Source of the DNA: the human T2T-CHM13v2.0 reference genome, Homo sapiens
Direction: 5' to 3' (one strand)
Assembly: GCF_009914755.1 (NCBI RefSeq)
Contig: NC_060929.1
Length of the DNA: 64,000 bases
The notes below the pieces were generated by a model. That model was not told the DNA's origin. It did no database searches and saw only the letters and a list, made by a program, of their open reading frames with translations. Of the stretch, positions 1,926-48,202 are shown piece by piece (the stretch's first letter is position 1; every line of letters begins with the position of its first letter). Made by a program: the position numbers and the translations under genes.

Positions 1926-2477
1926 TCCCCATCAAACTACCGTTGGCATTCTTCACAGAATTAGAAAAACCTATTTGAAATTTCATATGGAATCAAAGAA
2001 GACCCCATATAGCCAAGACAATCCTAAGCATAAAGAACAAAACTGGAGGCATCACACTACCTGACTTCATTACTGCAGGGCCTCAGTAACCAAAACAGCA
2101 TGGAACTGGTACCAAAACAGACATATAGACCAATGAAGGTGAACATAGACCTCAGAAATACACCACACGTCTACAACCACCTGATCTTCAACAAACCTGA
2201 CAAAAACAAGCAATGGGAAAGGATCTCATATTCAGTAATAATGTGGGAAATCTGGCTAGCCATATGCAGGAAACTGAAACTGGACCCCTTCCTTACACCT
2301 TATACAAAAATTAACTCAAGATGGATTAAAGACTTAAATGTAAAACCCCAAACCGTAAAAACCCTAGAAGAAAACCTAGGCAACAACATTCAGGACATAG
2401 GCAGGGTGGGCAAAGACTTCATGACAAAAATGCCAAAAGCAATTGCAACAAAAGCCAAAATTGACAATGGGATCTAA
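1926..2477 (+). mobile_element. L1PA ORF2 fragment, cut at its 3' side by the duplication junction
   Basis: ORF 2100..2477 contains [32 protein letters not shown]...[11 protein letters not shown] (L1 ORF2p). L1 sequence stops at GGGATCTAA with no 3' UTR or poly(A). Confidence 0.93.
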
Positions 2478-2522
2478 AGGCAGTGATGTTGGTAAACTAG
2501 TGATCCAAATGAAAAGAAAGTC

Positions 2523-2878
<356 letters not shown>

Positions 2879-3149
2879 TTACACTTCAAAGAGTAAGTCC
2901 TCCCACCATAGCTGTTTTCAAGTTATTACCATTTCAAGATACTAACTCCTGTGAATAGGAGGGTGAAGTCTTTAAATTATAGGAAATTTCAATAAAAGCC
3001 TGAGGCAAAGATATTTCAAGGGTTTTGGTTAAACAAAAGACACATTGGCTGGCATGAACAAGAGGAATGCACTATCGAAACCATCTTAGTCAATGGCAGG
3101 AAGACAGTGTTATGAGTCTACTGGTTACAGAAAATCTTTGTTTTAAAAA

Positions 3150-3988
3150 CTCAGGTTTATCGAATTAAAATTTATATATGCCAAAAGTCATCTTTTTAAG
3201 TATGCAGTGTGTTGAAAACATAGATGGTTATATAACAAATACCATCCTCAAGATATAGAACAGTACCATCACCTAGAAAAATTCCCTTTTGTGCCTTTTG
3301 AATCAGTATTTCTGCTGCCCTCAGTCTTTGGAAATCGCTGTTCTTTGTCCCTATGGTTTTATATTTTCTAGAATGTCATACACAAGGGAGCAAACAGCAT
3401 CCTGAATAGGCCTTTAAATCTGGCTTTTTAAATAGCATAATAAATCTGAGACACATTCATGTTGTTATGTTATCAGATTTGTTTCTTTTTCTTCCTAACG
3501 TGATATTAAATAGATACAGTATATAACTTTTTGACTATTCACCAGTTTTTGAAATTATGAATCATATGGTTAAAGTCACCAACAGATATACATATGTATA
3601 TTACATATATGTATATAGTATACATATAAATCAGTGGATTCTTCAATTTTTTTATTGTCAAAATGATTTTTCCATTATAATTCCTTTGCTTCTCTGTTGA
3701 AAGTTTTAGAATGAGCTTGTTTGTTAGTTGCAAATATCCTGTTAGGAATTTTAACTGGATTGAATTTTTGTATTGAATTTTTTTATTGGTTTGAACAGAA
3801 TTAATTTATTGTCAATATTGGCTACCAAGCTCTTTACTTATTTACTTCTTCTTTGATTTCTTTTACCAGTGTTTTTTTTAGTTTTTGTTACCCTTTCTCC
3901 ATGTTTTTTTAGATTAAGAATTTAATGTTTCTTGTGCTACTTTAAATGTAACTTTAAAAAATTCTAATTTCCAATTGTTCATTAATAG
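3150..3988 (-). mobile_element. Old L1M (L1MC/ME-like) fragments
   Basis: Degenerate antisense L1 3'-end motifs (ACCATCCTCAAGATATAGAAC..., TTTTCTAGAATGTCATA). Boundaries are approximate; similar sequence resumes at about 5320-5900. Confidence 0.55.
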
Positions 3989-4198
3989 TGTTGTAAAGTA
4001 GCGGGTCCCCCACCAGGGAATTTAAGGGCATATGTTGACTGCTTGAGTCCTGAAGGCTAGATGGTGAGCAAAGTTCATGGTGCTCAGCCGAGGAACAGAT
4101 GTCGCTGAAAACCAAAACATCCGGGAGCATATCTAGGTACATACCAAGAAGAACAGTTTCATCACATGTAGTAAGCAAAGAGCCAGAAAAGTAGCTTT

Positions 4199-4480
<282 letters not shown>

Positions 4481-4510
<30 letters not shown>

Positions 4511-4940
4511 AAGGGAAGGGAAGGGAAGGGAAGGGAAGGGAAGGGAAGGGAAGGGAAGGGAAGGGAAGGGAAGGGAAGGGAAGGGAAGGGAAGGGAAGGG
4601 AAGGGAAGGGAAGGGAAGGGAAGGGAAGGGAAGGGAAGGGAAGGGAAGGGAAGGGAAGGGAAGGGAAGGGAAGGGAAGGGAAGGGAAGGGAAGGGAAGGG
4701 AAGGGAAGGGAAGGGAAGGGAAGGGAAGGGAAGGGAAGGGAAGGGAAGGGAAGGGAAGGGAAGGGAAGGGAAGGGAAGGGAAGGGAAGGGAAGGGAAGGG
4801 AAGGGAAGGGAAGGGAAGGGAAGGGAAGGGAAGGGAAGGGAAGGGAAGGGAAGGGAAGGGAAGGGAAGGGAAGGGAAGGGAAGGGAAGGGAAGGGAAGGG
4901 AAGGGAAGGGAAGGGAAGGGAAGGGAAGGGAAGGGAAGGG
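4481..4940 (+). repeat. Compound microsatellite (AAAAG)6(AAGGG)86
   Basis: Counted directly: AAAAG x6 at 4481-4510, then uninterrupted AAGGG x86 at 4511-4940. Confidence 0.99.
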
Positions 4941-5204
4941 AAGCTTAAAAGCAGCTTAGAGGAAGATGGTGGGCAGCAGGCGGATCTCTGGAGTTATCCC
5001 GCTGCCCTTTACGTAAGTCCTAATAAACTCATCTTCTCGTGAAGCTGGACTTGTCTGAGTCCTTCTTTGTTATTTCAGCACTATCTCTTTGGCAGAGGGA
5101 TGTTCTTCTACACAGGTCTGGGTTTTTCCTGCAACAATTATATATAAAAAATAATTCTGTATATTAACATTATAGTGTTATAGTGCATAGTGTGAAATTA
5201 CAAA

Positions 5205-5310
5205 ACTCACAATTTATTTCTAGTAGCTTCACTTTTAATAATTTTAATTATTTTGTACTCACAATTTATTTCTAGCAGCTTCACTGCTAATAATTTTAAT
5301 TATTTTGTAC
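5205..5310. repeat. 52-bp tandem duplication (2 copies); mirrored at 43907-44012
   Basis: ACTCACAATTTATTTCTAG(T/C)AGCTTCACT..TAATAATTTTAATTATTTTGT starts at 5205 and 5257. Confidence 0.92.
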
Positions 5311-6179
5311 ATAATGGAATACTGTGCATAGACCATCCACGAATCAAATAGAGTTTTATTTCTTCGTATCCAATTTGTATGCCTTTTGTTTATTTTTCTT
5401 ACTTTAGTACACTGGTTAAAATTTCCAGTATACAGTTAAATAGTTCTTGAGGACAGGTTTCCTGTACTTCTTTTCTTCGTGCCTGTGTATAACGTATATT
5501 TAACTATATAATACATACAACACAACTATGTTTGTCTTCATATAATTTTTTACCTTTTTTTTAGTTTGTTTACGTAGCCCCTATATCTCTAGAAATGTTT
5601 CTTGGATTTACGATTTGATTGCCTTCACTTCTTTTGGAAAATTCTCATTCATTTTGTTTTTAAGTATTTATCATCCTTGTTCTCTTTCATGAATCCGTTC
5701 AAGTTAGGCATCCAGAGCTGTCCTTCAGCTCTTGGATGCCATGTTCTGCTATTTATCACTCTTCTTGTTTCTTACTTGTATTTGTTATTCAATTTCTATG
5801 TTTTTTATCTTCAACTTTACTGTTCCATTCTTTATTCATATCAAGTCTTCTGATGAATTACTTCATTGGTGTTTGCATTTTGAGGTAGATACAACAGTAT
5901 ATCTATTGAGACATTAATTAGTGCAATTAAACCGAAGTTTAACACATTTTAAGTAAAAATTTATCCCACTATCGCATAAAACTTGTGAAAGTTAAAGTCA
6001 TCAGCACTTAATATTGTCTGTCATGCGAGGCAATCGGCACTCAAGTGGCAAATGCACTCATTTAACTCTAACTTGGTACTTTAGTTAATCTCTCATATTG
6101 ATTTTTTTAACCCTTAAACACTGGCAAAGAGAAGCATACACCTAAAGAGAGATTTTTTACATTATTGTTTATTTAGTTA

Positions 6180-6468
6180 GTTTTTAGAAACAAGGTCTCC
6201 TCTCTCTCCCAGGCTGGAGGGCTGTGGTGCAATCACAGCTCACTGCAGCCTCAAAATCCTGGGCCCAAGCATACCTCCCACCTCAGCCTCCCAAGTAGCT
6301 GGGATTACAAGTGCCTGCCTCAGTACCCGGCTACTTTTAAAACATTTTTTGATACACATAGAGTCTCAGTTTGCTGCTCAGGCTGGTCTCAAACTATTGG
6401 TCTCAAGCAATCCTCTTGCCTCAAGCTTCTAAAGTGCTGGGATTACAGGTTAACCAGGACACCTGGCC
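6180..6468 (-). mobile_element. AluJ (diverged)
   Basis: Antisense dimer with J-type CACAGCTCACTGCAGCCTC and CTCAAGCAATCCTC. Confidence 0.85.
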
Positions 6469-7811
6469 TAGAGGTTATTTTTTGTTGTTTTAATTTCTTT
6501 ATTTAATAGTCTGTGTATTTAAATTTTGTTGACAATAATCTTAACAGCAACAATAGTATCTACTTGAAAGGTATGCATTCTATATATAATTCCTTAGATA
6601 TAAATTTAAGTATAAATATTTGAAAACTCTTTAATTTTTTAATATTGTGTCCCATTTCTTAAAAAGGAGAGAAGCTATATTAACTTTTGAATTCAGTACA
6701 CAGTTAACAGTTCTTTCATTTAATATGTGATAATATAAATTTAACAGTGAAACTTTCAAATACTCATATTAACTTACCCTGATAGATTTTATAGCTTTAA
6801 TATAAAACTTCTCATAAATGTAAAATTTGACAAAGCACAATATTCTCCAGGAAGTTAGAAAAGTAATATAATTTTCTGTCTCTCAGAATGTGTTTTCTAA
6901 CCTCTAAATATAAATTGATGGACTAATCTTTTAAAATTCAGAATCAAATATAATTGCTTTGGTTTGATCATTGAGAATTCTTTTTCCATTCCATCATTTT
7001 ATAGTTTTTGCCTAAATAAAATACTTAAGGAAGTTATTGTTATGTTGTATTTGAAAGATGCCTGATGGAGAAACATTCATAGTTCTTTTCTATCCTTATG
7101 AAAGGTTATATGAAAACATATATATATGTGTATATATAAACATGTGGATAAAGTACAGAAAATCCTATCATTGCCTCTGACTCAAATGGTAATCTTTAAT
7201 ATAAAGATTTGAAACTTTCATGGAACAGTATATCAGAACTTTATTTCCAATTTGTTTATGTATACTTAACGTATATCCTAAGTATTAAGAAATCACATTC
7301 AATTAACATATACATTATAAAACAATTCCTATATGATAATTCTAATAAGTAAACATGATTTTAGTGGTAGTAATTATTCAATCAAATATTCATATTTTAA
7401 AGATTAAATCTTCATATTTTAAAGCACATTACATCAGTTTACAATTCGATATTGACTACTGGATAGAATTTATCAATGAAATTTTGAATATGGCATGGTT
7501 AATGCAGATCATGTGAATTAAATTGCAAGGCAGAGAGCTTTTAAATTAAAAAAATAAGCTGGTTTATAAATCCAGTGCTAGACAGTTAATAAAAGCAATA
7601 CATATAAATCTCCCAGACACCTCCCAATCTTGGTATTTTGAAATATTTTCCTCTTTTTAATATTATTTAAATAAAAAAATTATCTGCCTTTAAGCAACAA
7701 AACATGAACTCTTGGTAGAAAATTCACTAATTGACATAGGTATCTAGACTTATAAACCTGTAAAAAATGTGAAATAGAAGGCATAAAGTATTTGAGTCAA
7801 TAAATTACTAA

Positions 7812-8122
<311 letters not shown>

Positions 8123-11100
8123 TTAACTAAATCTTTTGATTAAATCAGCTTTATAAAAAAAGTAAACGTAAACACATAAGTCTTTGTATAAGCACCCCTA
8201 CATTTTTAAAAGTATATTTGCCTTTTCATAAACTCAGTTGAGTAGTGGTAACATTCATCATCACAACTTTTTAGAGGCAATGAAATTGATGTCATTTGAG
8301 GTCTTCATCTCATATTTATCTTTTATTTTCTTATTTTGTCATGTTTAGCAAAGGATAGTAAAAGTAGAGGATCATTCAACCCAGAAATACAGGGAAACTG
8401 ATCCTTGTAAATAGCACCCTTTATAGACTCATGGATATTTTAAGAGCAAGATGTGCTAGAAAGGAAAATAAGGCAATCTCTTAATGCTGTGCCTTTTCTT
8501 CCATTACATTTTTAGATTATATATTATCCCTTGTTTATTTCTGTAGCTGGGGAAAATATTTTTATTGAAATAGATTGTTTTTTGAAGTTTGCTATATTAG
8601 GTAAAAATAAATACCAAACTTCTCTGTCTTCAGTTTAATAGAAAAAAAAAATCCCTTGTTACTCTGTTTCTGCCTTACTGTTAGTAGAAAGATTTATGAT
8701 TAAGTAATTTTAGTAGGACAACATTAAGAACAAAAACATGAACCAAAATACTTTTTAAAATAAATATACACATTTTTACTATATATAGACACATATATAA
8801 AAGTATATATACATATATGTATATATGTGACTTCAATAACAGGAAAATAGATTTTCCAGATTAACAATCTAAACATCTCATCCATAACAAAAGGTTAGGC
8901 TCTATACCAATGCTTGAATGAAAACTGTAATATCATCCATTTAAAAAAATGCCAACACATGCATAATTTTAGGCTGTAAAAATGAAAATATTTCAGAATT
9001 GATTAACAAATGGTGGAAGTTAAAGTTGTCTCTTCCCGACCTGCACTTTGTTTTCTGTCTCTTGCCTTTTCTCACATTTTATTTTTCCTTCCTATCTCAA
9101 CAATATACCCCACCTGCAGTGTGCCCAATGTGGACACATACCTGCTTTTTTCAGGCACTGTTTTGGACAACATTTCCCTACTGAGCATTAAATCACTTTT
9201 TCTTAAATACGTACTAAAGATTTCCATGGCTGAAAAGCTAGTTCCACATACATTAATAATCCTTGAAGAATTAAATCAGATACAACCTCTACATCAGCAC
9301 AATATTTCAAGGTGGTAAGGGAGTGCTACTGCTGGGTTCGTCTTCACTTAATAACTTTATTAATGATGTGGATGAGTGAACAAATATGAAAAGAAAATTT
9401 ATAGGTATTACATACGTAGATTCTGCAGAAACAAATAGGCTGGAAGGTAATGACTGTAGAATGACCTAGAGAGGTTAAAAAAAGAAAATAGTAGTCCAAT
9501 ATTATTCCACTTTTAAGTAAATGAGACCATTAAGCTCTTTAAAATAACCAGTAAATAAAAACTCAAAGCAATGATAGCTACATCAAAAAGTGAGGGAAGA
9601 GGGGAAATTATATGTTGCAATGTTACAGAGTACATTAAAGCATTCAGTATATTTCCTGAAAATTTCATAAGCACAGTTCTTAATGTTTATTCATAAATAA
9701 ACAAAACCACACCAAAAGCCATAGTTCATTTGTTTCTAACTAAGAGTACAAATTATTTATGCGGAAAAGTACATATAAGCTCACATAAATAACACGAATA
9801 ATGTTTTCATTGTGAAGATATTCATAACGTTCAAATGACAAGGTCTTAGGAACTCTGCACCTTCATTAATTTTAATCAATATTTAACAATCAAGATTGTT
9901 TTCAATAAATCATGATCTAATAATGAAAGGGGGAAACTATTTGTTTTAACTTTCATTTCAGTTTTACCCTTTACTCACAAGTTGAAATTCATTCTCACTC
10001 TTTGCAAACTATTTTGAAACACTTCCAGGTAAAATTCATATAAATATTTTATTTTTCCTAATTTTTGGAAAAATTTTAGACTATTACAATCTGAGTTAAT
10101 AGCCTAGTTCCTTTGTTGATCCAGTGTAAATAAATATTTCTCTTTTCTTGCTGTATTAAAAAACCCACAGTCTCTATAGCCAAGTCTATATCTATATCGA
10201 TATCTATCTGTATCTGTATCTATCTATGTGTATCTCTATCGATGTATGCATACACAAATAATATCTGTGGAAGAATTTTTTTTCATGTAGTGTAATATCC
10301 ACAGCTCTTCTACTTTAACCATAACTCAAGTTAATAACATTTTATTGTCTTTTGTTAGTTTTACCTGGAAAAGAAAGCACATCATATACAATATTATAAA
10401 ATAGAAATAAAACTAAATATAGTGTTTTAGAAGGTAACAAAGTTTTATGTTTAAGGATATTAAATAAAATCTATTTCTTCCAGTATATTTTTTCACAATC
10501 TGTCTTAAATGGAATCTTCAGATATCTTAACAAGTTGACTACTAGATTTTGTAGTGTATTCCAATCAGATATCTATCTGAGGCCACTCTTTTTTTTAATA
10601 ATCTAGGCTTCTGTAGACAATGTGGAAACATTTTTAAAATGATGACGCCCTCCTTTTCCTTCGTAGCTAAATTAGTACACAAAATTCTAAATATTTCCTT
10701 AGTTTTAATAATAATAAAGCAATATAAGATTCACCCTCTGTATTCAATTCTTTGTTACCAATTCTGCTATAATTAGAATTTTTGAAATTCTTAGTTATAA
10801 CCTTTATTTTTGATAATTGCATTTAAAATGCAATGATAAAGCAAATAATTAAAATGCTAGGAATAAAATTGTCCTTTATTAGTTTATCATAAAGTTCCAT
10901 AAATTTCAGCTCTCCTTGATTTCTCACTATTCTAGTTCATCAATTTTGTAATTAATCATTAAACATTATTCTTTCTCTATATTAAAAATATTAGCAATTA
11001 ACAAATCCCTATTTAATATTATATTCATTGTTTTAGTTTGATGCTTTTTTTTTTTAGTGATATGTACAGAAGACAAAAAAATGATGTGCAGCCTTTGTGT

Positions 11101-11743
11101 TCCATTTATTGTTGCGTAAAATAAAATTTCATCAATCTTGGATAAAAATTCTTAGGCCTATGATTATATTTGAAGGAAACACTAACTTCTGACATGATTA
11201 TTTAGAACACACATTTTCTTAACTTGTCTTCCATTTTAATGGAGCTATAAATAGCTTTGGCAAATTTTTCTGCTTTGCTGTTAATTTAACTCAGTAGATT
11301 TATTGAAATTTTAAGACACCACGTTACGCAAGATTTAGGGTATGTGACTACTCTTTCCTCCTGTGTGGAGGTCGACATTGCCACAGTCTAATATCATAGT
11401 TCCCCTAAGTGGTCCCCTCCCAGAAGTGAGTTGCAAGTTCCTGCTGACTTTCAGAATTATTTCTCCATGTTTATGTCATTTTGATGCAAGAGAGGTCAAT
11501 ACACAGGTATGTCATCAAAATAATATTTAGACTATGTCATTCCCACAAAAAACAACTTATATGCCATGTTTTACTCACTACCAAAGTCTTGTTGAATACT
11601 ACTTGTTTCATTCCTCTAGCCAGGAGACAACCTGGCAGGTATACTGCCTGAGCACCAAGAAGTTATCATATAATTTGCGTTTCACTGACCTCTCTTACCT
11701 TGTCAAATTACCCACAATAATTTTGGTAAAGTTGCATCTAACT

Positions 11744-11854
11744 TGGTATGGACTAAAAATACTTGCGTCGCCCCCAAAATTTGTATGTTAAAACCCTAAT
11801 TCCACTGAGATGATATTTGGAAACAGGGCCTTTGGGAAATAATTAGGTCATGAG

Positions 11855-11893
<39 letters not shown>

Positions 11894-12078
11894 GTCTGGT
11901 CTCTCTCTCTGTCTCTTTATGAGGACATGACAAGGAATGGAGGTTTTACCTGTAACCATTGACTGGCACCTTTATCTTGGACTCTCAGCCTCCAGAACTC
12001 CGAGAAGTAAATTTCTATTGTTTAAACCAGTCAGTGTATGTTGTTTTTGTTGTTGTTATAGCAGCTTGAATTAAGACA
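11744..12078 (+). mobile_element. MaLR LTR (MLT1A-like) with internal (TC)n
   Basis: TGGTATGGACT...CCCCCAAAATTTGTATGTT start; CAGCCTCCAGAACT...AAATTTCTATTGTTT...TTATAGCAGC...TAAGACA end. Confidence 0.8.
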
Positions 12079-12326
12079 CAATTTTCCTAAAACTTAAAAA
12101 TGTCAGATTGGTGGATAAAATTGTATTTCATTGTGCTTTTTTCTTCAAGCCTTATACCTCTGACTCCAAACTCATAGTAACCAGTGTAAGACATGGTAGA
12201 ATCTTTCCACTAGTGCTTGGGACACTATTTATAGTATCTACCCAATCTAATTTTAATGAAAAAGTTGAAGGTTGGTATAAAAAAATGTTTATCATCTAGG
12301 AGTTCCAGGCTCAATTCAACATACTT

Positions 12327-12847
12327 GTGATGGTCTCATGTAGTAGCAGTGACAGTCAACTACAAATGGTGCCTGAACAGGGACATTTCAGAGACTATCA
12401 GGGACATACAGAGACCTGAAAGGACCTGGAGGGACCTGAAGAGGCCTGCAGGGATAAACAGAGATAAGTGGAGGTAAGTACAGAAAAGTAAGTAGAGATA
12501 AGTAAGTAGAGAAAAGTAGAGATAGGTAGGGAAAGACGGGGACTTGCAGGAACTAACAGGTACCATAGGGACAGACAGAGACAGATAGGAATAGATAAAG
12601 ACTAGCAATATAAGGTCAGTGCCCTGAAGAGGTACTGGTCTGTGTCCTAAAGAGGTACAAAAGTAGAGACTAGCAAAGACTAGGAGAGATTTGGAGGAAC
12701 AGACAGGGACAGATAGGGACAGATAGGGTCCTATAGGACTAGAGCGAGGAAGGTCTGCTGGAACAGAAAAAAACTAAAACCAACTAGATGAACGAGAAAG
12801 CCCATTACAACTCTGTTGGCAGCGACATAAGGTTAGTGCTCTAAAAA
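12327..12847 (+). mobile_element. Orphan copy of HML-6 U5 remnant, PBS and leader, truncated by the duplication junction
   Basis: PBS TGGTGCCTGAACAGGGAC at 12367-12384 (tRNA-Lys3 PBS TGGCGCCCGAACAGGGAC with 2 CpG changes), followed by a purine-rich repetitive leader. Confidence 0.85.
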
Positions 12848-36170: not shown

Positions 36171-37132
36171 TTCATTCTCCCTCTTCTGTTCACCATTTTC
36201 GATAGGCACTGTAGGTGGGGCAAAAAATTCTAAATAACAAAAAGATGGTACATACCAAAACTCCAAACAAACAAAAAAGAGAAAAGAAATAGCCAAATTC
36301 TTCCTCGTTTCCCTGTTTTAAAAACTTCCCATTCTTTGTACCTCTAGGGCACTGACCAGTACCTTTTTAGAGAACTAACCTTATGTCGCTGCCAACAGAG
36401 TTGTAATGGGCTTTCTCGTTCATCTAGTTGGTTTTAGTTTTTTTCTGTTCCAGCAGACCTTCCTCGCTCTAGTCCTATAGGACCCTATCTGTCCCTATCT
36501 GTCCCTGTCTGTTCCTCCAAATCTCTCCTAGTCTTTGCTAGTCTCTACTTTTGTACCTCTTTAGGACACAGACCAGTACCTCTTCAGGGCACTGACCTTA
36601 TATTGCTAGTCTTTATCTATTCCTATCTGTCTCTGTCTGTCCCTATGGTACCTGTTAGTTCCTGCAAGTCCCCGTCTTTCCCTACCTATCTCTACTTTTC
36701 TCTACTTACTTATCTCTACTTACTTTTCTGTACTTACCTCCACTTATCTCTGTTTATCCCTGCAGGCCTCTTCAGGTCCCTCCAGGTCCTTTCAGGTCTC
36801 TGTATGTCCCTGATAGTCTCTGAAATGTCCCTGTTCAGGCACCATTTGTAGTTGACTGTCACTGCTACTACATGAGACCATCACAAGTATGTTGAATTGA
36901 GCCTGGAACTCCTAGATGATAAACATTTTTTTATACCAACCTTCAACTTTTTCATTAAAATTAGATTGGGTAGATACTATAAATAGTGTCCCAAGCACTA
37001 GTGGAAAGATTCTACCATGTCTTACACTGGTTACTATGAGTTTGGAGTCAGAGGTATAAGGCTTGAAGAAAAAAGCACAATGAAATACAATTTTATCCAC
37101 CAATCTGACATTTTTAAGTTTTAGGAAAATTG

Positions 37133-37313
37133 TGTCTTAATTCAAGCTGCTATAACAACAACAAAAACAACATACACTGACTGGTTTAAACAATAGAAAT
37201 TTACTTCTCGGAGTTCTGGAGGCTGAGAGTCCAAGATAAAGGTGCCAGTCAATGGTTACAGGTAAAACCTCCATTCCTTGTCATGTCCTCATAAAGAGAC
37301 AGAGAGAGAGACC

Positions 37314-37362
<49 letters not shown>

Positions 37363-37473
37363 CTCATGACCTAATTATTTCCCAAAGGCCCTGTTTCCAA
37401 ATATCATCTCAGTGGAATTAGGGTTTTAACATACAAATTTTGGGGGCGACGCAAGTATTTTTAGTCCATACCA
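37133..37473 (-). mobile_element. MLT1A-like LTR (mirror of 11744-12078)
   Basis: Reverse complement of the left copy; the (GA)n is 6 bp longer. Confidence 0.8.
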
Positions 37474-40400
37474 AGTTAGATGCAACTTTACCAAAATTAT
37501 TGTGGGTAATTTGACAAGGTAAGAGAGGTCAGTGAAACGCAAATTATATGATAACTTCTTGGTGCTCAGGCAGTATACCTGCCAGGTTGTCTCCTGGCTA
37601 GAGGAATGAAACAAGTAGTATTCAACAAGACTTTGGTAGTGAGTAAAACATGGCATATAAGTTGTTTTTTGTGGGAATGACATAGTCTAAATATTATTTT
37701 GATGACATACCTGTGTATTGACCTCTCTTGCATCAAAATGACATAAACATGGAGAAATAATTCTGAAAGTCAGCAGGAACTTGCAACTCACTTCTGGGAG
37801 GGGACCACTTAGGGGAACTATGATATTAGACTGTGGCAATGTCGACCTCCACACAGGAGGAAAGAGTAGTCACATACCCTAAATCTTGCGTAACGTGGTG
37901 TCTTAAAATTTCAATAAATCTACTGAGTTAAATTAACAGCAAAGCAGAAAAATTTGCCAAAGCTATTTATAGCTCCATTAAAATGGAAGACAAGTTAAGA
38001 AAATGTGTGTTCTAAATAATCATGTCAGAAGTTAGTGTTTCCTTCAAATATAATCATAGGCCTAAGAATTTTTATCCAAGATTGATGAAATTTTATTTTA
38101 CGCAACAATAAATGGAACACAAAGGCTGCACATCATTTTTTTGTCTTCTGTACATATCACTAAAAAAAAAAAGCATCAAACTAAAACAATGAATATAATA
38201 TTAAATAGGGATTTGTTAATTGCTAATATTTTTAATATAGAGAAAGAATAATGTTTAATGATTAATTACAAAATTGATGAACTAGAATAGTGAGAAATCA
38301 AGGAGAGCTGAAATTTATGGAACTTTATGATAAACTAATAAAGGACAATTTTATTCCTAGCATTTTAATTATTTGCTTTATCATTGCATTTTAAATGCAA
38401 TTATCAAAAATAAAGGTTATAACTAAGAATTTCAAAAATTCTAATTATAGCAGAATTGGTAACAAAGAATTGAATACAGAGGGTGAATCTTATATTGCTT
38501 TATTATTATTAAAACTAAGGAAATATTTAGAATTTTGTGTACTAATTTAGCTACGAAGGAAAAGGAGGGCGTCATCATTTTAAAAATGTTTCCACATTGT
38601 CTACAGAAGCCTAGATTATTAAAAAAAAGAGTGGCCTCAGATAGATATCTGATTGGAATACACTACAAAATCTAGTAGTCAACTTGTTAAGATATCTGAA
38701 GATTCCATTTAAGACAGATTGTGAAAAAATATACTGGAAGAAATAGATTTTATTTAATATCCTTAAACATAAAACTTTGTTACCTTCTAAAACACTATAT
38801 TTAGTTTTATTTCTATTTTATAATATTGTATATGATGTGCTTTCTTTTCCAGGTAAAACTAACAAAAGACAATAAAATGTTATTAACTTGAGTTATGGTT
38901 AAAGTAGAAGAGCTGTGGATATTACACTACATGAAAAAAAATTCTTCCACAGATATTATTTGTGTATGCATACATCGATAGAGATACACATAGATAGATA
39001 CAGATACAGATAGATATCGATATAGATATAGACTTGGCTATAGAGACTGTGGGTTTTTTAATACAGCAAGAAAAGAGAAATATTTATTTACACTGGATCA
39101 ACAAAGGAACTAGGCTATTAACTCAGATTGTAATAGTCTAAAATTTTTCCAAAAATTAGGAAAAATAAAATATTTATATGAATTTTACCTGGAAGTGTTT
39201 CAAAATAGTTTGCAAAGAGTGAGAATGAATTTCAACTTGTGAGTAAAGGGTAAAACTGAAATGAAAGTTAAAACAAATAGTTTCCCCCTTTCATTATTAG
39301 ATCATGATTTATTGAAAACAATCTTGATTGTTAAATATTGATTAAAATTAATGAAGGTGCAGAGTTCCTAAGACCTTGTCATTTGAACGTTATGAATATC
39401 TTCACAATGAAAACATTATTCGTGTTATTTATGTGAGCTTATATGTACTTTTCCGCATAAATAATTTGTACTCTTAGTTAGAAACAAATGAACTATGGCT
39501 TTTGGTGTGGTTTTGTTTATTTATGAATAAACATTAAGAACTGTGCTTATGAAATTTTCAGGAAATATACTGAATGCTTTAATGTACTCTGTAACATTGC
39601 AACATATAATTTCCCCTCTTCCCTCACTTTTTGATGTAGCTATCATTGCTTTGAGTTTTTATTTACTGGTTATTTTAAAGAGCTTAATGGTCTCATTTAC
39701 TTAAAAGTGGAATAATATTGGACTACTATTTTCTTTTTTTAACCTCTCTAGGTCATTCTACAGTCATTACCTTCCAGCCTATTTGTTTCTGCAGAATCTA
39801 CGTATGTAATACCTATAAATTTTCTTTTCATATTTGTTCACTCATCCACATCATTAATAAAGTTATTAAGTGAAGACGAACCCAGCAGTAGCACTCCCTT
39901 ACCACCTTGAAATATTGTGCTGATGTAGAGGTTGTATCTGATTTAATTCTTCAAGGATTATTAATGTATGTGGAACTAGCTTTTCAGCCATGGAAATCTT
40001 TAGTACGTATTTAAGAAAAAGTGATTTAATGCTCAGTAGGGAAATGTTGTCCAAAACAGTGCCTGAAAAAAGCAGGTATGTGTCCACATTGGGCACACTG
40101 CAGGTGGGGTATATTGTTGAGATAGGAAGGAAAAATAAAATGTGAGAAAAGGCAAGAGACAGAAAACAAAGTGCAGGTCGGGAAGAGACAACTTTAACTT
40201 CCACCATTTGTTAATCAATTCTGAAATATTTTCATTTTTACAGCCTAAAATTATGCATGTGTTGGCATTTTTTTAAATGGATGATATTACAGTTTTCATT
40301 CAAGCATTGGTATAGAGCCTAACCTTTTGTTATGGATGAGATGTTTAGATTGTTAATCTGGAAAATCTATTTTCCTGTTATTGAAGTCACATATATACAT

Positions 40401-41094
40401 ATATGTATATATACTTTTATATATGTGTCTATATATAGTAAAAATGTGTATATTTATTTTAAAAAGTATTTTGGTTCATGTTTTTGTTCTTAATGTTGTC
40501 CTACTAAAATTACTTAATCATAAATCTTTCTACTAACAGTAAGGCAGAAACAGAGTAACAAGGGATTTTTTTTTTCTATTAAACTGAAGACAGAGAAGTT
40601 TGGTATTTATTTTTACCTAATATAGCAAACTTCAAAAAACAATCTATTTCAATAAAAATATTTTCCCCAGCTACAGAAATAAACAAGGGATAATATATAA
40701 TCTAAAAATGTAATGGAAGAAAAGGCACAGCATTAAGAGATTGCCTTATTTTCCTTTCTAGCACATCTTGCTCTTAAAATATCCATGAGTCTATAAAGGG
40801 TGCTATTTACAAGGATCAGTTTCCCTGTATTTCTGGGTTGAATGATCCTCTACTTTTACTATCCTTTGCTAAACATGACAAAATAAGAAAATAAAAGATA
40901 AATATGAGATGAAGACCTCAAATGACATCAATTTCATTGCCTCTAAAAAGTTGTGATGATGAATGTTACCACTACTCAACTGAGTTTATGAAAAGGCAAA
41001 TATACTTTTAAAAATGTAGGGGTGCTTATACAAAGACTTATGTGTTTACGTTTACTTTTTTTATAAAGCTGATTTAATCAAAAGATTTAGTTAA

Positions 41095-41405
<311 letters not shown>

Positions 41406-42748
41406 TTAGTAATTTATTGACTCAAATACTTTATGCCTTCTATTTCACATTTTTTACAGGTTTATAAGTCTAGATACCTATGTCAATTAGTGAATTTTCT
41501 ACCAAGAGTTCATGTTTTGTTGCTTAAAGGCAGATAATTTTTTTATTTAAATAATATTAAAAAGAGGAAAATATTTCAAAATACCAAGATTGGGAGGTGT
41601 CTGGGAGATTTATATGTATTGCTTTTATTAACTGTCTAGCACTGGATTTATAAACCAGCTTATTTTTTTAATTTAAAAGCTCTCTGCCTTGCAATTTAAT
41701 TCACATGATCTGCATTAACCATGCCATATTCAAAATTTCATTGATAAATTCTATCCAGTAGTCAATATCGAATTGTAAACTGATGTAATGTGCTTTAAAA
41801 TATGAAGATTTAATCTTTAAAATATGAATATTTGATTGAATAATTACTACCACTAAAATCATGTTTACTTATTAGAATTATCATATAGGAATTGTTTTAT
41901 AATGTATATGTTAATTGAATGTGATTTCTTGATACTTAGGATATACGTTAAGTATACATAAACAAATTGGAAATAAAGTTCTGATATACTGTTCCATGAA
42001 AGTTTCAAATCTTTATATTAAAGATTACCATTTGAGTCAGAGGCAATGATAGGATTTTCTGTACTTTATCCACATGTTTATATATATACATATATATATG
42101 TTTTCATATAACCTTTCATAAGGATAGAAAAGAACTATGAATGTTTCTCCATCAGGCATCTTTCAAATACAACATAACAATAACTTCCTTAAGTATTTTA
42201 TTTAGGCAAAAACTATAAAATGATGGAATGGAAAAAGAATTCTCAATGATCAAACCAAAGCAATTATATTTGATTCTGAATTTTAAAAGATTAGTCCATC
42301 AATTTATATTTAGAGGTTAGAAAACACATTCTGAGAGACAGAAAATTATATTACTTTTCTAACTTCCTGGAGAATATTGTGCTTTGTCAAATTTTACATT
42401 TATGAGAAGTTTTATATTAAAGCTATAAAATCTATCAGGGTAAGTTAATATGAGTATTTGAAAGTTTCACTGTTAAATTTATATTATCACATATTAAATG
42501 AAAGAACTGTTAACTGTGTACTGAATTCAAAAGTTAATATAGCTTCTCTCTTTTTTAAGAAATGGGACACAATATTAAAAAATTAAGGAGTTTTCAAATA
42601 TTTATACTTAAATTTATATCTAAGGAATTATATATAGAATGCATACCTTTCAAGTAGATACTATTGTTGCTGTTAAGATTATTGTCAACAAAATTTAAAC
42701 ACACAGACTATTAAATAAAGAAATTAAAACAACAAAAAATAACCTCTA

Positions 42749-43037
42749 GGCCAGGTGTCCTGGTTAACCTGTAATCCCAGCACTTTAGAAGCTTGAGGCA
42801 AGAGGATTGCTGGAGACCAATAGTTTGAGACCAGCCTGAGCAGCAAACTGAGACTCTATGTGTATCAAAAAATGTTTTAAAAGTAGCCGGGTACTGAGGC
42901 AGGCACTTGTAATCCCAGCTACTTGGGAGGCTGAGGTGGGAGGTATGCTTGGGCCCAGGATTTTGAGGCTGCAGTGAGCTGTGATTGCACCACAGCCCTC
43001 CAGCCTGAGAGAGAGAGGAGACCTTGTTTCTAAAAAC
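42749..43037 (+). mobile_element. AluJ (mirror of 6180-6468)
   Basis: Reverse complement of the left copy. Confidence 0.85.
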
Positions 43038-44080
43038 TAACTAAATAAACAATAATGTAAAAAATCTCTCTTTAGGTGTATGCTTCTCTTTGCCAGTGTT
43101 TAAGGGTTAAAAAAATCAATATGAGAGATTAACTAAAGTACCAATTTAGAGTTAAATGAGTGCATTTGCCACTTGAGTGCCGATTGCCTCGCATGACAGA
43201 CAATATTAAGTGCTGATGACTTTAACTTTCACAAGTTTTACGCGATAGTGGGATAAATTTTTACTTAAAATGTGTTAAACTTCGGTTTAATTGCACTAAT
43301 TAATGTCTCAATAGATATACTGTTGTATCTACCTCAAAATGCAAACACCAATGAAGTAATTCATCAGAAGACTTGATATGAATAAAGAATGGAACAGTAA
43401 AGTTGAAGATAAAAAACACAGAAATTGAATAACAAATACAAGTAAGAAACAAGAAGAGTGATAAATAGCAGAACATGGCATCCAAGAGCTGAAGGACAGC
43501 TCTGGATGCCTAACTTGAACGGATTCATGAAAGAGAACAAGGATGATAAATACTTAAAAACAAAATGAATGAGAATTTTCCAAAAGAAGTGAAGGCAATC
43601 AAATCGTAAATCCAAGAAACATTTCTAGAGATATAGGGGCTACGTAAACAAACTAAAAAAAAGGTAAAAAATTATATGAAGACAAACATAGTTGTGTTGT
43701 ATGTATTATATAGTTAAATATACGTTATACACAGGCACGAAGAAAAGAAGTACAGGAAACCTGTCCTCAAGAACTATTTAACTGTATACTGGAAATTTTA
43801 ACCAGTGTACTAAAGTAAGAAAAATAAACAAAAGGCATACAAATTGGATACGAAGAAATAAAACTCTATTTGTTTCGTGGATGGTCTATGCACAGTATTC
43901 CATTATGTACAAAATAATTAAAATTATTAGCAGTGAAGCTGCTAGAAATAAATTGTGAGTACAAAATAATTAAAATTATTAAAAGTGAAGCTACTAGAAA
44001 TAAATTGTGAGTTTTGTAATTTCACACTATGCACTATAACACTATAATGCTAATATACAGAATTATTTTTTATATATAAT

Positions 44081-44870
<790 letters not shown>

Positions 44871-45935
44871 CTATTAATGAACAATTGGAAATTAGAATTT
44901 TTTAAAGTTACATTTAAAGTAGCACAAGAAACATTAAATTCTTAATCTAAAAAAACATGGAGAAAGGGTAACAAAAACTAAAAAAACACTGGTAAAAGAA
45001 ATCAAAGAAGAAGTAAATAAGTAAAGAGCTTGGTAGCCAATATTGACAATAAATTAATTCTGTTCAAACCAATCAAAAAATTCAATACAAAAATTCAATC
45101 CAGTTAAAATTCCTAACAGGATATTTGCAACTAACAAACAAGCTCATTCTAAAACTTTCAACAGAGAAGCAAAGGAATTATAATGGAAAAATCATTTTGG
45201 CAATAAAAAAATTGAAGAATCCACTGATTTATATGTATACTATATACATATATGTAATATACATATGTATATCTGTTGGTGACTTTAACCATATGATTCA
45301 TAATTTCAAAAACTGGTGAATAGTCAAAAAGTTATATACTGTATCTATTTAATATCACGTTAGGAAGAAAAAGAAACAAATCTGATAACATAACAACATG
45401 AATGTGTCTCAGATTTATTATGCTATTTAAAAAGCCAGATTTAAAGGCCTATTCAGGATGCTGTTTGCTCCCTTGTGTATGACATTCTAGAAAATATAAA
45501 ACCATAGGGACAAAGAACAGCGATTTCCAAAGACTGAGGGCAGCAGAAATACTGATTCAAAAGGCACAAAAGGGAATTTTTCTAGGTGATGGTACTGTTC
45601 TATATCTTGAGGATGGTATTTGTTATATAACCATCTATGTTTTCAACACACTGCATACTTAAAAAGATGACTTTTGGCATATATAAATTTTAATTCGATA
45701 AACCTGAGTTTTTAAAACAAAGATTTTCTGTAACCAGTAGACTCATAACACTGTCTTCCTGCCATTGACTAAGATGGTTTCGATAGTGCATTCCTCTTGT
45801 TCATGCCAGCCAATGTGTCTTTTGTTTAACCAAAACCCTTGAAATATCTTTGCCTCAGGCTTTTATTGAAATTTCCTGTAATTTAAAGACTTCACCCTCC
45901 TATTCACAGGAGTTAGTATCTTGAAATGGTAATAA

Positions 45936-46330
<395 letters not shown>

Positions 46331-48202
46331 GACTTTCTTTTCATTTGGATCACTAGTTTACCAACATCACTGCCTTTACTCAACTCTATTAACAATTATT
46401 TAACCTAGTTTATCAAGTCACTTGTCAAAATAGAGATTTATATTGTTTATATATTTAATATTTTACAAATCTGTATTTTTGTACTTCACTATCTAATTAA
46501 ACCTTTGGGGTAACTTTTATGTGTATCCCAAATAGGACAGGACAGTCATTCATTTCTTATAATGTATCAGCTAATTTCAAGGAGACATCGGAATTTTTGT
46601 GGAGACATCGGAATCTGAAGAGCAAAGTGATTCAAATTGGGTCACAGATTAAATAATTTTTAAAATGTTTACTTTAAATATCTTAAAAAACTTTAAGGAG
46701 AAAATTAATTTTTCTATATTGTTCTTGGCCTTAAAATATACATTAAGCATTAGTTTTCTGGCTTTTGATGTTTTTCATAAAATTAGCTCAAAAAATGCAA
46801 AAAGCTTGTATGAATATATAAGGGCCTTTGTAATCATATTGTAATTGCTTGACATAGTTAATTTCTTGATTTCTGACTCTGGCATCTGAGTTTCATAATT
46901 GTTATGTAATTACTCTATTTTTTTAAATCATGTTTTTAAATGGAAGTTTCAGTCTCAGATCTTTTCTATTTCATGCAATAAATAATTTTTAGCAGTAAAG
47001 AATTATTTGGCAATAAATATTTTTTGAGACGTCATGCTCCAATGATATAATTTAGTCCACTTTCTGCTTGAAAATATGCAAAGAAGAAATCTCTTGTTGG
47101 TATTAATTTCAGAAGTCGTCTTTGCACACACAATGATGATCATTCTGTTTTCCTTAGATAATTCATGGTAGTGTAACCCAATAATATAATCTTAGATGTG
47201 TAACTTACATACATGCACGTGGCACATGAAGCATGTGGTGTACTGAGATGAAAATAAGCTTGTAAAAGTCATTGGTTACCTAACTGCGGCTTGGTACCTA
47301 GCACACCCTACCTGCAACGGTCCCAACAGTTACACTGGCTCTATTTGACTTAGATGATGCAGGGGTGGGTTCAAAATCCCTCTCTTTTTCCTAATTACAT
47401 ACGACTGAGCATCCCTTCCCTTGTCTCAATCTGGGATTTTGAGAGTTTATTATAAGATCCCCAGTGAAAATCCACCCAGGTGGTTCTTCCCTACCCTCTT
47501 TAAATGTTCACACCCTAGTGTGAACAAGCTAGAAGTGGATTCTTTGAGGCAGTGACAACAGACCATGTTCAACTTCTACACTCCTTGATGTTTGTGTATT
47601 GGAAGAAGGTGTGACAAGATGCCAGGCACCAGAATTTCAGGTTGGTCTTTATGGAATTCTTGAACTCTAGGGCTGCATCCCTCCCTATAATGAGGCAAAG
47701 TTGGGGAAGTAGAAAGTTCAATGCAGCCTATGATTTTTACCTCATGGTTTTCTATAACCTAATACATATCACATTGAATTATGTGTTAACTCGTGAGCAT
47801 TCAAATTAATAGAGCATGCTGTACCAAAATATTGTCATTATTTTGGTTATTATAAATTATATATGGCCATGATCAGTGCTATAGGGCAAGACTATATCAT
47901 TTTTTACTTCTAGGCTAAAAGGATTATGTTCCTACACATGAATTATGTAACTTTTTAAAAAAAATAGTGATATTTTTCTATTAGAAGTTAAAGCAATTAG
48001 TTCTTTACAACATTGGCTACGTACTCAAATCAACTGATTCCTGGGTTTCCCCTCAATCCAAGTAAATTAGGCAGAGAGCAAAACTAAGGAACAGTATTTT
48101 CAAAGCTGACCAGGATTGACAATGACTGGTATTCAAATAGCTGTGAATTTGTGCAAATGTAGCAGAAGACAGCAAAGGGTTCTGGATATGCCAATTATTA
48201 TT

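What the first reader, a model, noticed from the sequence alone, without database searches (positions are those of the whole stretch)
4481..4946. RFC1/CANVAS-type AAAAG-to-AAGGG motif switch and expansion in an AluY tail, with the ancestral state kept in the paralogous arm
Seen: the left AluY tail is (AAAAG)6 followed by 86 perfectly pure AAGGG units (430 bp). The same Alu in the right arm (44277-44381) has an interrupted (AAAAG)~20 with no AAGGG. This tail alone accounts for a 358-bp shift between the arms. The 3' TSD is intact on the right (AGAAAAGTAGCTT) but eroded on the left (AAGGG-AAGCTT), which points to the left state as derived. Known: the CANVAS mutation in RFC1 intron 2 is the same AAAAG-to-AAGGG change in an Alu poly(A) tail, and AAGGG tracts can form G-quadruplex or triplex structures. 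Inference: this is an independent, recent origin of the same unstable motif with a built-in control. It lies in a segmental duplication, where short-read STR genotyping fails, so it may be an uncatalogued expandable locus. 86 units is below the hundreds reported for pathogenic RFC1 alleles.
Basis: partly seen in the sequence, partly recalled or inferred. Interest (0 to 1): 0.85.

Follow-up and report, generated by a model that had tools for sequence, protein, structure and literature searches.

The report
Long AAGGG repeat in Alu tail
One copy of a duplicated Alu element near the human SMN genes has turned its A-rich tail into 86 perfect AAGGG units, the same motif change that causes CANVAS at RFC1, while five sister copies in the same genome show earlier or different stages; it is a real and tidy example of a known kind of unstable repeat, with no shown effect.

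Summary
Window 4481-4510 is (AAAAG)6 and 4511-4940 is 86 uninterrupted AAGGG units, directly behind an Alu body. The inverted partner copy (44271-44381) has only interrupted AAAAG units, and the length difference is exactly 358 bp.

The own genome (T2T-CHM13) holds six copies of this Alu with both flanks. Their tails form a series:
- chr5p copy: A19 + (AAAAG)4.
- Two right-arm copies: about 20 AAAAG.
- One copy: (AAAAG)21 + (AAAGG)6.
- One copy: (AGGGG)23 with a few AAGGG.
- This copy: (AAGGG)86.

Five of six copies keep the 3' target-site duplication end TAGCTT; only this copy reads AAGCTT. So the AAGGG state is derived, most likely by A-to-G changes within units followed by slippage expansion.

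It is the second-longest pure AAGGG run in this genome. The longest is (AAGGG)125, at chr5:79.66 Mb, also in an Alu tail.

A-rich Alu tails turning into G-richer pentamers is already documented genome-wide, so this is a new member of a known kind. At 86 units it is well below the 250-unit lower limit reported for RFC1, and it lies outside any coding gene. I could not test variation between people, ape orthologs or read support. I found no paper on this locus.

The parts
2475..12847 (+). Left arm of a large inverted repeat (palindrome) that carries the Alu. Upstream of 2475 this copy shares no homology with the other five copies.
   Evidence: blastn of the arms; alignment of six copies breaks down for copy A upstream of 2475
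36364..46378 (-). Right arm of the inverted repeat, about 23.5 kb from the left arm
4185..4197 (+). 5' target-site duplication AGAAAAGTAGCTT of the left Alu
   Evidence: read directly; the same word follows the tail in the right arm
4199..4477 (+). Alu body, left arm. 20 CpG were counted in 4192-4478, which includes 7 bases of the target-site duplication.
   Evidence: about 91% identical to two other Alus in the window
4478..4510 (+). AAG + (AAAAG)6, the remnant of the A-rich tail array, in phase with the AAGGG units
4511..4940 (+). (AAGGG)86, 430 bp, no interruption. It is part of a 466-nt homopurine run (4478-4943) with 86 G3 runs.
4941..4946 (+). AAGCTT, the altered end of the 3' target-site duplication (TAGCTT in the other five copies)
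44271..44381 (-). Tail of the same Alu in the right arm: interrupted AAAAG array, 111 nt including TAGCTT, no AAGGG
44382..44660 (-). Alu body, right arm
44662..44674 (-). 5' target-site duplication of the right-arm Alu (reverse complement of AGAAAAGTAGCTT)
   Evidence: read directly

Best explanation
This is a microsatellite born from an Alu poly(A) tail that has changed its unit in place and then expanded.

Shown: the same Alu insertion (same target-site duplication, same flanks) exists six times in this haploid genome, because the segment was duplicated from chr5p to chr5q13 and then within the SMN region, partly as an inverted pair. The six tails are:
- F (chr5p): A19 + (AAAAG)4.
- B and D (right arms): interrupted AAAAG arrays of about 20 units.
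- E: (AAAAG)21 ... (AAAGG)6 (AAAAG)5.
- C: (AAGGG)3 (AGGGG)23 (AAGGG)2 between AAAAG ends.
- A (this copy): (AAAAG)6 (AAGGG)86.

Inferred: the AAAAG array grew at the end of the poly(A) tail next to the duplicated target site, which itself begins with AAAAG. A-to-G changes within units then made G-richer units, and these spread and expanded by replication slippage. In copy A the AAGGG units replaced the whole 3' part of the array and a T-to-A change altered the first base of TAGCTT. The units stay in phase with the AAAAG units, which fits change in place rather than insertion of foreign DNA.

From published work on the same motif (not tested here), a 430-bp AAGGG tract should be able to form triplex H-DNA and G-quadruplexes and slow replication forks, unlike AAAAG. 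That would also favour further length changes.

No function is proposed. It is a by-product of mutation in an intergenic stretch, about 100 bp beyond the last exon of a predicted lncRNA on the other strand.
For: - Sequence and counts.
- Six and only six full-length copies were found, with the 3' flank and again with the 5' flank.
- Tail make-up of all six.
- TAGCTT is kept in 5 of 6 copies; only copy A differs.
- The chr5p copy is the outgroup (1.5-1.7% from every 5q copy, against 0.02-0.58% among 5q copies) and has the shortest, most A-rich tail.
- B and D differ by 0.023% in 4.35 kb of flank and by one AAAAG unit. C and E differ by 0.137% yet carry AGGGG against AAAAG/AAAGG arrays. So G-containing arrays change fast.
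- Papers. PMC12433003 (passages): variable repeats at Alu 3' ends are enriched in GC-richer motifs, thought to derive from the A-rich tail. 10.1101/2025.05.27.656002 (passages): 28,446 pentanucleotide loci, 68% in Alu elements, and neighbouring motifs usually differ by one base. 10.1101/2023.07.25.550509 (abstract and section 13): AAGGG but not AAAAG blocks polymerases, forms H-DNA and stalls forks in yeast and human cells. PMC10954463 (abstract): AAGGG forms parallel G-quadruplexes.
Against: - No step of the mutational path was observed; it is read from six end states in one genome.
- The rooted order of the three 5q lineages is unresolved. In the 4.35 kb of flank, 3 sites join A with C and E, while 5 sites join A with B and D; 4 of those 5 cluster at 2989-3266. 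So it is open whether A and C/E inherited a first G-rich unit from a common ancestor or gained G independently.
- Gene conversion between copies is evident: from 7301 to 12840, A, B, C and D are nearly identical. It could have moved tails between copies.
- The exact unit number rests on one assembly. The T2T paper reports loss of HiFi coverage across GA-rich sequence, with gaps filled from an ONT assembly (PMC9186530, passage read).
- Structure formation and fork stalling at this locus were not tested.
Confidence: 0.85

Rival explanations
1. Assembly artefact: the AAGGG tract, or its length, was produced by assembly or polishing in a GA-rich stretch of a segmental duplication, and the true sequence is AAAAG-like or much shorter.
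For: PMC9186530 (passage read): the CHM13 string graph was fragmented by a lack of HiFi coverage across GA-rich sequences, and the gaps were filled from an earlier ONT-based assembly. The locus lies in a duplication with 99+% identical copies.
Against: The tract is perfectly regular and in phase with the AAAAG units. It is only 430 bp, far shorter than a long read. The unique junction at 2475 is 2 kb away, so reads can be placed. Two other paralogs assembled with different, impure G-rich tails, and a second locus assembled with 125+39 units, so the assembler does not collapse such tracts to one form. No reads could be examined here.
Confidence: 0.05
2. Shared origin: a first G-rich unit (for example AAAGG) arose once in the common ancestor of the three left-type copies (A, C, E). 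It then drifted to AAGGG in A, AGGGG in C and AAAGG in E. On this reading the motif switch is not private to this copy, and the 'built-in control' compares two old lineages.
For: All three copies in the left orientation carry G-richer units and neither right-arm copy does. Near the tail, three sites (4438, 5798, 6209) join A with C and E as derived, against one (6301) that joins A with B and D.
Against: Over the 4.35 kb of flank, A is as far from C and E (0.48-0.53%) as from B and D (0.48-0.51%). Five sites join A with B and D. C and E share the 3' end '(AAAAG)n A6 G TAGCTT', which A lacks. Such tails change quickly, as C against E shows, so parallel gains are plausible.
Confidence: 0.35
3. 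The tract matters biologically. Either it is a fork-stalling, break-prone site that adds to the instability of the SMN region, or it is an expandable allele with an effect on health.
For: The motif and its length are in the range shown to stall forks in model systems (10.1101/2023.07.25.550509, abstract). The tract sits inside an inverted repeat, 2 kb from a duplication breakpoint, about 210 kb from the SMN2 block as placed on CHM13 by PMC11927269 (passage read).
Against: There is no population, breakpoint or expression data. Distances to the outgroup show no significant excess of substitutions beside the tract: A 73, against 66-69 for the others, of about 4350 sites. The tract is outside coding genes, and 86 units is far below the RFC1 limit of 250 (PMC10689911). 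Searches found no paper that links AAGGG with this region.
Confidence: 0.05

Closest known systems
RFC1 intron 2 repeat (CANVAS)
   Same: An (AAAAG)n array at the 3' end of an Alu is replaced by AAGGG and lengthened. The locus also shows the motifs AAAGG and AGGGG, which here are spread over paralogs (PMC6612533 passages; 10.1101/2023.07.25.550509 section 13).
   Different: Different chromosome and Alu copy. It is intergenic, beside a predicted lncRNA, not in an intron of a coding gene. It has 86 units against a lower pathogenic limit of 250 (PMC10689911). The variation seen here is between paralogs in one haploid genome, not between alleles. No disease link is known.
Genome-wide class of Alu-tail pentanucleotide repeats with motif changes
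   Same: It sits in the poly(A) tail of an Alu, its neighbouring motifs differ by single bases, and it has a chimeric structure of an A-rich motif followed by a G-richer one (10.1101/2025.05.27.656002; PMC12433003, passages read).
   Different: That preprint states that AAGGG and AGGGG tend to occur in impure clusters of short segments. Here AAGGG runs pure for 86 units. The nine chr1 loci with at least 10 units that I examined have 10-16 units within mixed purine tracts.
(AAGGG)125 + (AAGGG)39-40 tract at chr5:79,664,037-79,664,862 of the same genome
   Same: An Alu tail with a few AAAAG and one AAAGG unit followed by a long pure AAGGG run.
   Different: It is about twice as long, lies in single-copy sequence as far as examined, and has no paralogs for comparison.

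Membership tests
Alu poly(A)-tail-derived microsatellite | Array starts directly at the 3' end of an Alu body | tested here: met
   Alu body ends at 4477 and the array begins at 4478.
Alu poly(A)-tail-derived microsatellite | Alu plus array is bracketed by a target-site duplication | tested here: met
   AGAAAAGTAGCTT at 4185-4197. The 3' copy is whole in 5 of 6 paralogs and differs by one base in this copy.
Alu poly(A)-tail-derived microsatellite | A less-derived copy still shows a plain poly(A) tail | tested here: met
   The chr5p paralog has TC A19 G A (AAAAG)4.
RFC1/CANVAS-type expansion | AAAAG-to-AAGGG change of unit in an Alu tail | tested here: met
   RFC1 description in PMC6612533.
RFC1/CANVAS-type expansion | Located in RFC1 intron 2 | tested here: not met
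   The window is chr5:70.56 Mb (hub annotation; one search places the window on contig 5). RFC1 is on chr4 (PMC6612533).
RFC1/CANVAS-type expansion | At least about 250 AAGGG units | tested here: not met
   86 units, against a lower limit of 250 (PMC10689911).
RFC1/CANVAS-type expansion | Biallelic expansion segregating with disease | not testable with these tools
   There is one haploid genome only.
H-DNA / G-quadruplex-forming repeat | Long homopurine-homopyrimidine mirror repeat; at least four G3 runs with short loops | tested here: met
   466-nt homopurine run, 86 G3 runs, 21 non-overlapping G4 motifs.
H-DNA / G-quadruplex-forming repeat | Structure forms and stalls replication at this locus | not testable with these tools
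   Only published work on the motif is available (10.1101/2023.07.25.550509; PMC10954463).
Unstable (expandable) repeat locus | Length and motif differ between closely related copies | tested here: met
   Six paralogs have six different tails. C and E differ by 0.137% in the flanks but carry different motifs.
Unstable (expandable) repeat locus | Length differs between individuals or generations | not testable with these tools
   No other human assemblies or reads were on hand.
AluY subfamily | Diagnostic positions of the subfamily consensus | not tested
   No repeat library was available. Only the CpG count (20 in 287 bp) was made.

The most novel reading that the evidence does not exclude
The Alu tail shared by the SMN-region duplicons is a hypermutable site that climbs the ladder AAAAG, AAAGG, AAGGG, AGGGG independently in different copies. 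Its long structure-forming states (here 430 bp of AAGGG inside an inverted repeat, 2 kb from a duplication breakpoint) stall forks and seed breaks, and so contribute to the rearrangements, conversions and copy-number changes of the spinal muscular atrophy locus. Alternatively, they expand further in some people with an effect of their own.
Probability: 0.06. Interest if true: 0.8.

Novelty: new member of a known kind. Interest (0 to 1): 0.4.

Why it matters
The six paralogs form a natural series for one well-defined Alu tail. They run from plain poly(A) through AAAAG and AAAGG to AAGGG and AGGGG, and flank divergence gives a rough clock. Paralog-resolved long-read assemblies of people and apes could show in what order and how fast the CANVAS-type motif arises and at what length it takes off. 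At RFC1 itself this is hard to see.

The locus also lies in the SMN region, where short reads map ambiguously, so a long structure-forming tract there could easily be missed by repeat genotyping. If it varies in length, it would be a useful paralog-specific marker and a candidate fragile point. Nothing found here shows any effect on health.

Tried and rejected
1. Repeat-induced mutagenesis beside the tract. Copy A has 9 private substitutions within about 2.3 kb on either side, against 0-3 for the others. But B/D and C/E are recent pairs with short private branches. Distances to the outgroup are A 73, B 69, D 68, C 66 and E 66 of about 4350 sites, so there is no significant excess. Rejected as unsupported.

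2. Full list of loci with at least 25 pure AAGGG units. The plain pattern search lists only the first 100 places, and all of these fell on two chr5 loci. What remains is a bound from the counts: 36 forward and 18 reverse matches are unaccounted for, so no other pure run exceeds 60 units.

3. Alu association of other AAGGG loci. blastn with the window's Alu body found an upstream Alu at 1 of 9 chr1 loci. By eye, 4 of 9 printed upstream stretches end in an Alu 3' end, so the blastn setting was too strict. The result is only indicative.

4. Earlier findings of this scan were not open to the session.

5. The SMN long-read paper PMC11927269 was searched for inverted, palindrome, tandem repeat, Alu and GUSBP. 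There was one unrelated mention of Alu.

6. Coordinate-derived anchors failed for the chr5p copy, whose Alu ends differently.

Full report
**What is in the sequence**

Reading window 4100-5100 shows, in order:
- an Alu body that ends at 4477;
- the bases AAG;
- six AAAAG units (4481-4510);
- 86 AAGGG units without a single interruption (4511-4940);
- AAGCTT, then the flank.

A regular-expression count and Tandem Repeats Finder (86.8 copies, 100% matches, score 868) agree. The homopurine run is 466 nt long (4478-4943). It holds 86 G3 runs, enough for 21 non-overlapping G-quadruplex motifs. The 5' target-site duplication AGAAAAGTAGCTT lies at 4185-4197.

**The partner arm**

The window holds a large inverted repeat. 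The left arm is 2475-12847 and the right arm 46378-36364, about 23.5 kb apart. The arms are 99.17% identical over 2036 bp on the 5' side of the tail and 99.72% over 7912 bp on its 3' side.

The same Alu in the right arm (tail 44271-44381, minus strand) reads aaag (AAAAG)3 aag AAAAG A8 g (AAAAG)3 aaag (AAAAG)10 TAGCTT. That is 111 nt with no AAGGG. The tails are 469 and 111 nt long, which explains the 358-bp shift between the arms.

**Six copies, not two**

The window's own assembly could be searched. The 3' flank (4947-5900) has six full-length matches. The 5' flank (3300-4190) finds the same six places and no others. I labelled them:

| Copy | Place | Orientation and role |
|---|---|---|
| A | chr5:70.56 Mb | +, this locus, left arm |
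| B | chr5:70.60 Mb | -, right arm in the window |
| C | chr5:71.09 Mb | + |
| D | chr5:71.13 Mb | - |
| E | chr5:71.82 Mb | + |
| F | chr5p, 21.30 Mb | - |

C and D are spaced like A and B, so the inverted pair exists twice. E and F stand alone.

According to PMC11927269 (passage read), the SMN2 block of CHM13 is chr5:70,772,138-70,944,284 and the SMN1 block is 71,274,893-71,447,410. So A/B lie about 0.2 Mb before SMN2, C/D lie between the two genes, and E lies about 0.4 Mb beyond SMN1.

**The tails of the six copies**

| Copy | Length (nt) | Tail |
|---|---|---|
| F | 49 | tc A19 g a (AAAAG)4 TAGCTT |
| B | 111 | as given above |
| D | 106 | as B, but the last run has 9 units |
| E | 218 | aaag (AAAAG)3 aag A8 g (AAAAG)21 aag (AAAAG)2 g (AAAGG)6 (AAAAG)5 A6 g TAGCTT |
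| C | 211 | aaag (AAAAG)4 aag aaag AAAAG AAAGG g (AAGGG)3 g (AGGGG)23 aggg (AAGGG)2 a (AAAAG)2 A6 g TAGCTT |
| A | 469 | aag (AAAAG)6 (AAGGG)86 AAGCTT |

One haploid genome thus holds every step from poly(A) to units with one, two, three and four G. Five of six copies keep TAGCTT. Only A has AAGCTT, and it has lost the 3' AAAAG block.

**Polarity and timing**

I compared 4.35 kb of flank around the tail (2476-4478 and 4947-7300):
- F differs from every 5q copy by 1.5-1.7%.
- A differs from B, C, D and E by 0.48-0.53%.
- C and E differ by 0.137%.
- B and D differ by 0.023%.

F is therefore the outgroup, and its short A-rich tail marks the ancestral state.

The 5q copies form three lineages: A, C+E and B+D. 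The site patterns are:
- 11 sites support the split B,D against A,C,E.
- 10 sites support C,E against A,B,D.
- With F as root, 3 sites make A,C,E share a derived base and 5 make A,B,D share one. Four of those 5 cluster at 2989-3266.

The rooted order is therefore open. Close to the tail (3658-6630) the count is 3 to 1 for A with C and E.

Further from the tail (7301-12840), A, B, C and D are nearly identical (at most 0.054% apart) and E stands apart (0.31-0.33%). This shows gene conversion among the copies.

The divergence of 0.5% against 1.5-1.7% for the 5p/5q split places the origin of the AAGGG tract after the intra-5q duplications. It cannot be dated more closely. Calling this 'within the human lineage' is an inference from recalled human-ape divergence values, not a test.

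**How unusual is it?**

An exact (AAGGG)10 word occurs 445 times forward and 247 times reverse in overlapping steps. The first 100 places listed cover chr1 to part of chr4 and fall into about 32 loci, each with at most 9 overlapping matches, that is at most 18 units.

An exact (AAGGG)25 word occurs 215 times forward and 18 times reverse, with none on chr1-4:
- 62 matches are this tract.
- 117 belong to chr5:79,664,037-79,664,862, another Alu tail that reads (AAAAG)2 AAAGG (AAGGG)125 then about 40 more units.
- The 36 forward and 18 reverse matches that remain cannot come from a run longer than 60 units.

So this is the second-longest pure AAGGG run in the assembly. I could not list the remaining loci (see Tried and rejected).

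The nine chr1 loci have 10-16 units embedded in mixed AGGGG/AAAGG/AAGG tracts. This fits the statement in 10.1101/2025.05.27.656002 (passage read) that AAGGG tends to occur in impure clusters. The purity and length of this tract are thus uncommon, but not unique.

**Mechanism**

Shown: the states of the six copies, their phase and their flanks.

Inferred:
- The AAAAG array grew next to the duplicated target site, which itself starts with AAAAG. In F the AAAAG units lie at that end and the plain A run at the Alu end.
- A-to-G changes created G-richer units, which spread and expanded by slippage.
- Arrays that contain G change much faster than pure AAAAG arrays. C against E differ in motif at 0.137% flank divergence, while B against D differ by one unit at 0.023%.

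From the literature on the motif (not this locus):
- It folds into parallel G-quadruplexes (PMC10954463, abstract).

Such structures are a plausible reason for a bias towards expansion. They would make this tract a potential replication obstacle. None of this was tested at this locus.

**Context and significance**

By the hub's annotation, the tract lies about 100 bp beyond the last exon (5050-5902, minus strand) of the predicted lncRNA LOC124906514 and in no coding gene. At RFC1 the lower limit of pathogenic AAGGG alleles is given as 250 units (PMC10689911, passage read); here there are 86.

I found no excess of substitutions beside the tract. I also found no paper that mentions an AAGGG repeat in the SMN region:
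- 'SMN1' + 'AAGGG': 22 papers; the 15 listed looked incidental by title and abstract start, and the other 7 were not seen.
- 'AAGGG' + '5q13': 4 papers, all incidental by title and abstract start.
- 'SMN locus' + 'T2T-CHM13' + 'segmental duplication': 8 papers, 6 listed. One was searched by terms, with no mention.

**Caveat on the assembly**

The T2T paper (PMC9186530, passage read) reports missing HiFi coverage across GA-rich sequence, filled from an ONT assembly. The motif is very unlikely to be an artefact, given its perfect regularity, the different G-rich tails in the paralogs and the nearby unique anchor. The exact count of 86 should still be checked against reads.

**Verdict**

The feature is real and correctly described, and the derived direction is now well supported. 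It is a new, unusually long and pure member of a known class, the Alu-tail pentanucleotide repeats that shift from A-rich to G-rich motifs. What makes it more useful than most is a set of five paralogous comparators in the SMN region. Its instability between people and any biological effect remain untested.

Noticed in passing
L031 (G000 contig 5: 79,664,037-79,664,862): A longer AAGGG tract in the same genome: an Alu tail with (AAAAG)2 AAAGG (AAGGG)125, one irregular unit, then 39-40 more AAGGG. It is the longest pure run found, and its gene context is unknown to me.
   Followed up: partly
L033 (G000 contig 5: 71,090,326-71,090,535): The paralogous Alu tail between the SMN2 and SMN1 blocks carries (AGGGG)23 flanked by a few AAGGG units. 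This is a different G-rich motif in a copy whose flanks are 0.137% from a copy with AAAAG/AAAGG.
   Followed up: yes
window 2475: Upstream of 2475 this copy loses all homology with the other five copies, which continue to match each other. So a duplication breakpoint unique to this copy lies between two masked Alu-like repeats (2248-2470 and 2503-2851).
   Followed up: partly
window 7301-12840 and partner 36364-41900: The spacer-side 5.5 kb of the arms is almost identical in four copies (A, B, C, D; at most 0.054% apart), while the outer 4.35 kb differs by about 0.5%. This is a sharp change that looks like arm-to-arm and copy-to-copy gene conversion.
   Followed up: partly
window about 3601 (copies C and E: L033, L032): Copies C and E carry a 45-nt AT-rich insertion (a TA/TG-type repeat) that is absent from A, B, D and the chr5p copy.
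   Followed up: no
window 4947-5900: Parts of the 3' flank (query positions about 57-135 and 399-486) match dozens of places on other chromosomes at 73-89% identity. So the Alu inserted into an older interspersed repeat.
   Followed up: no
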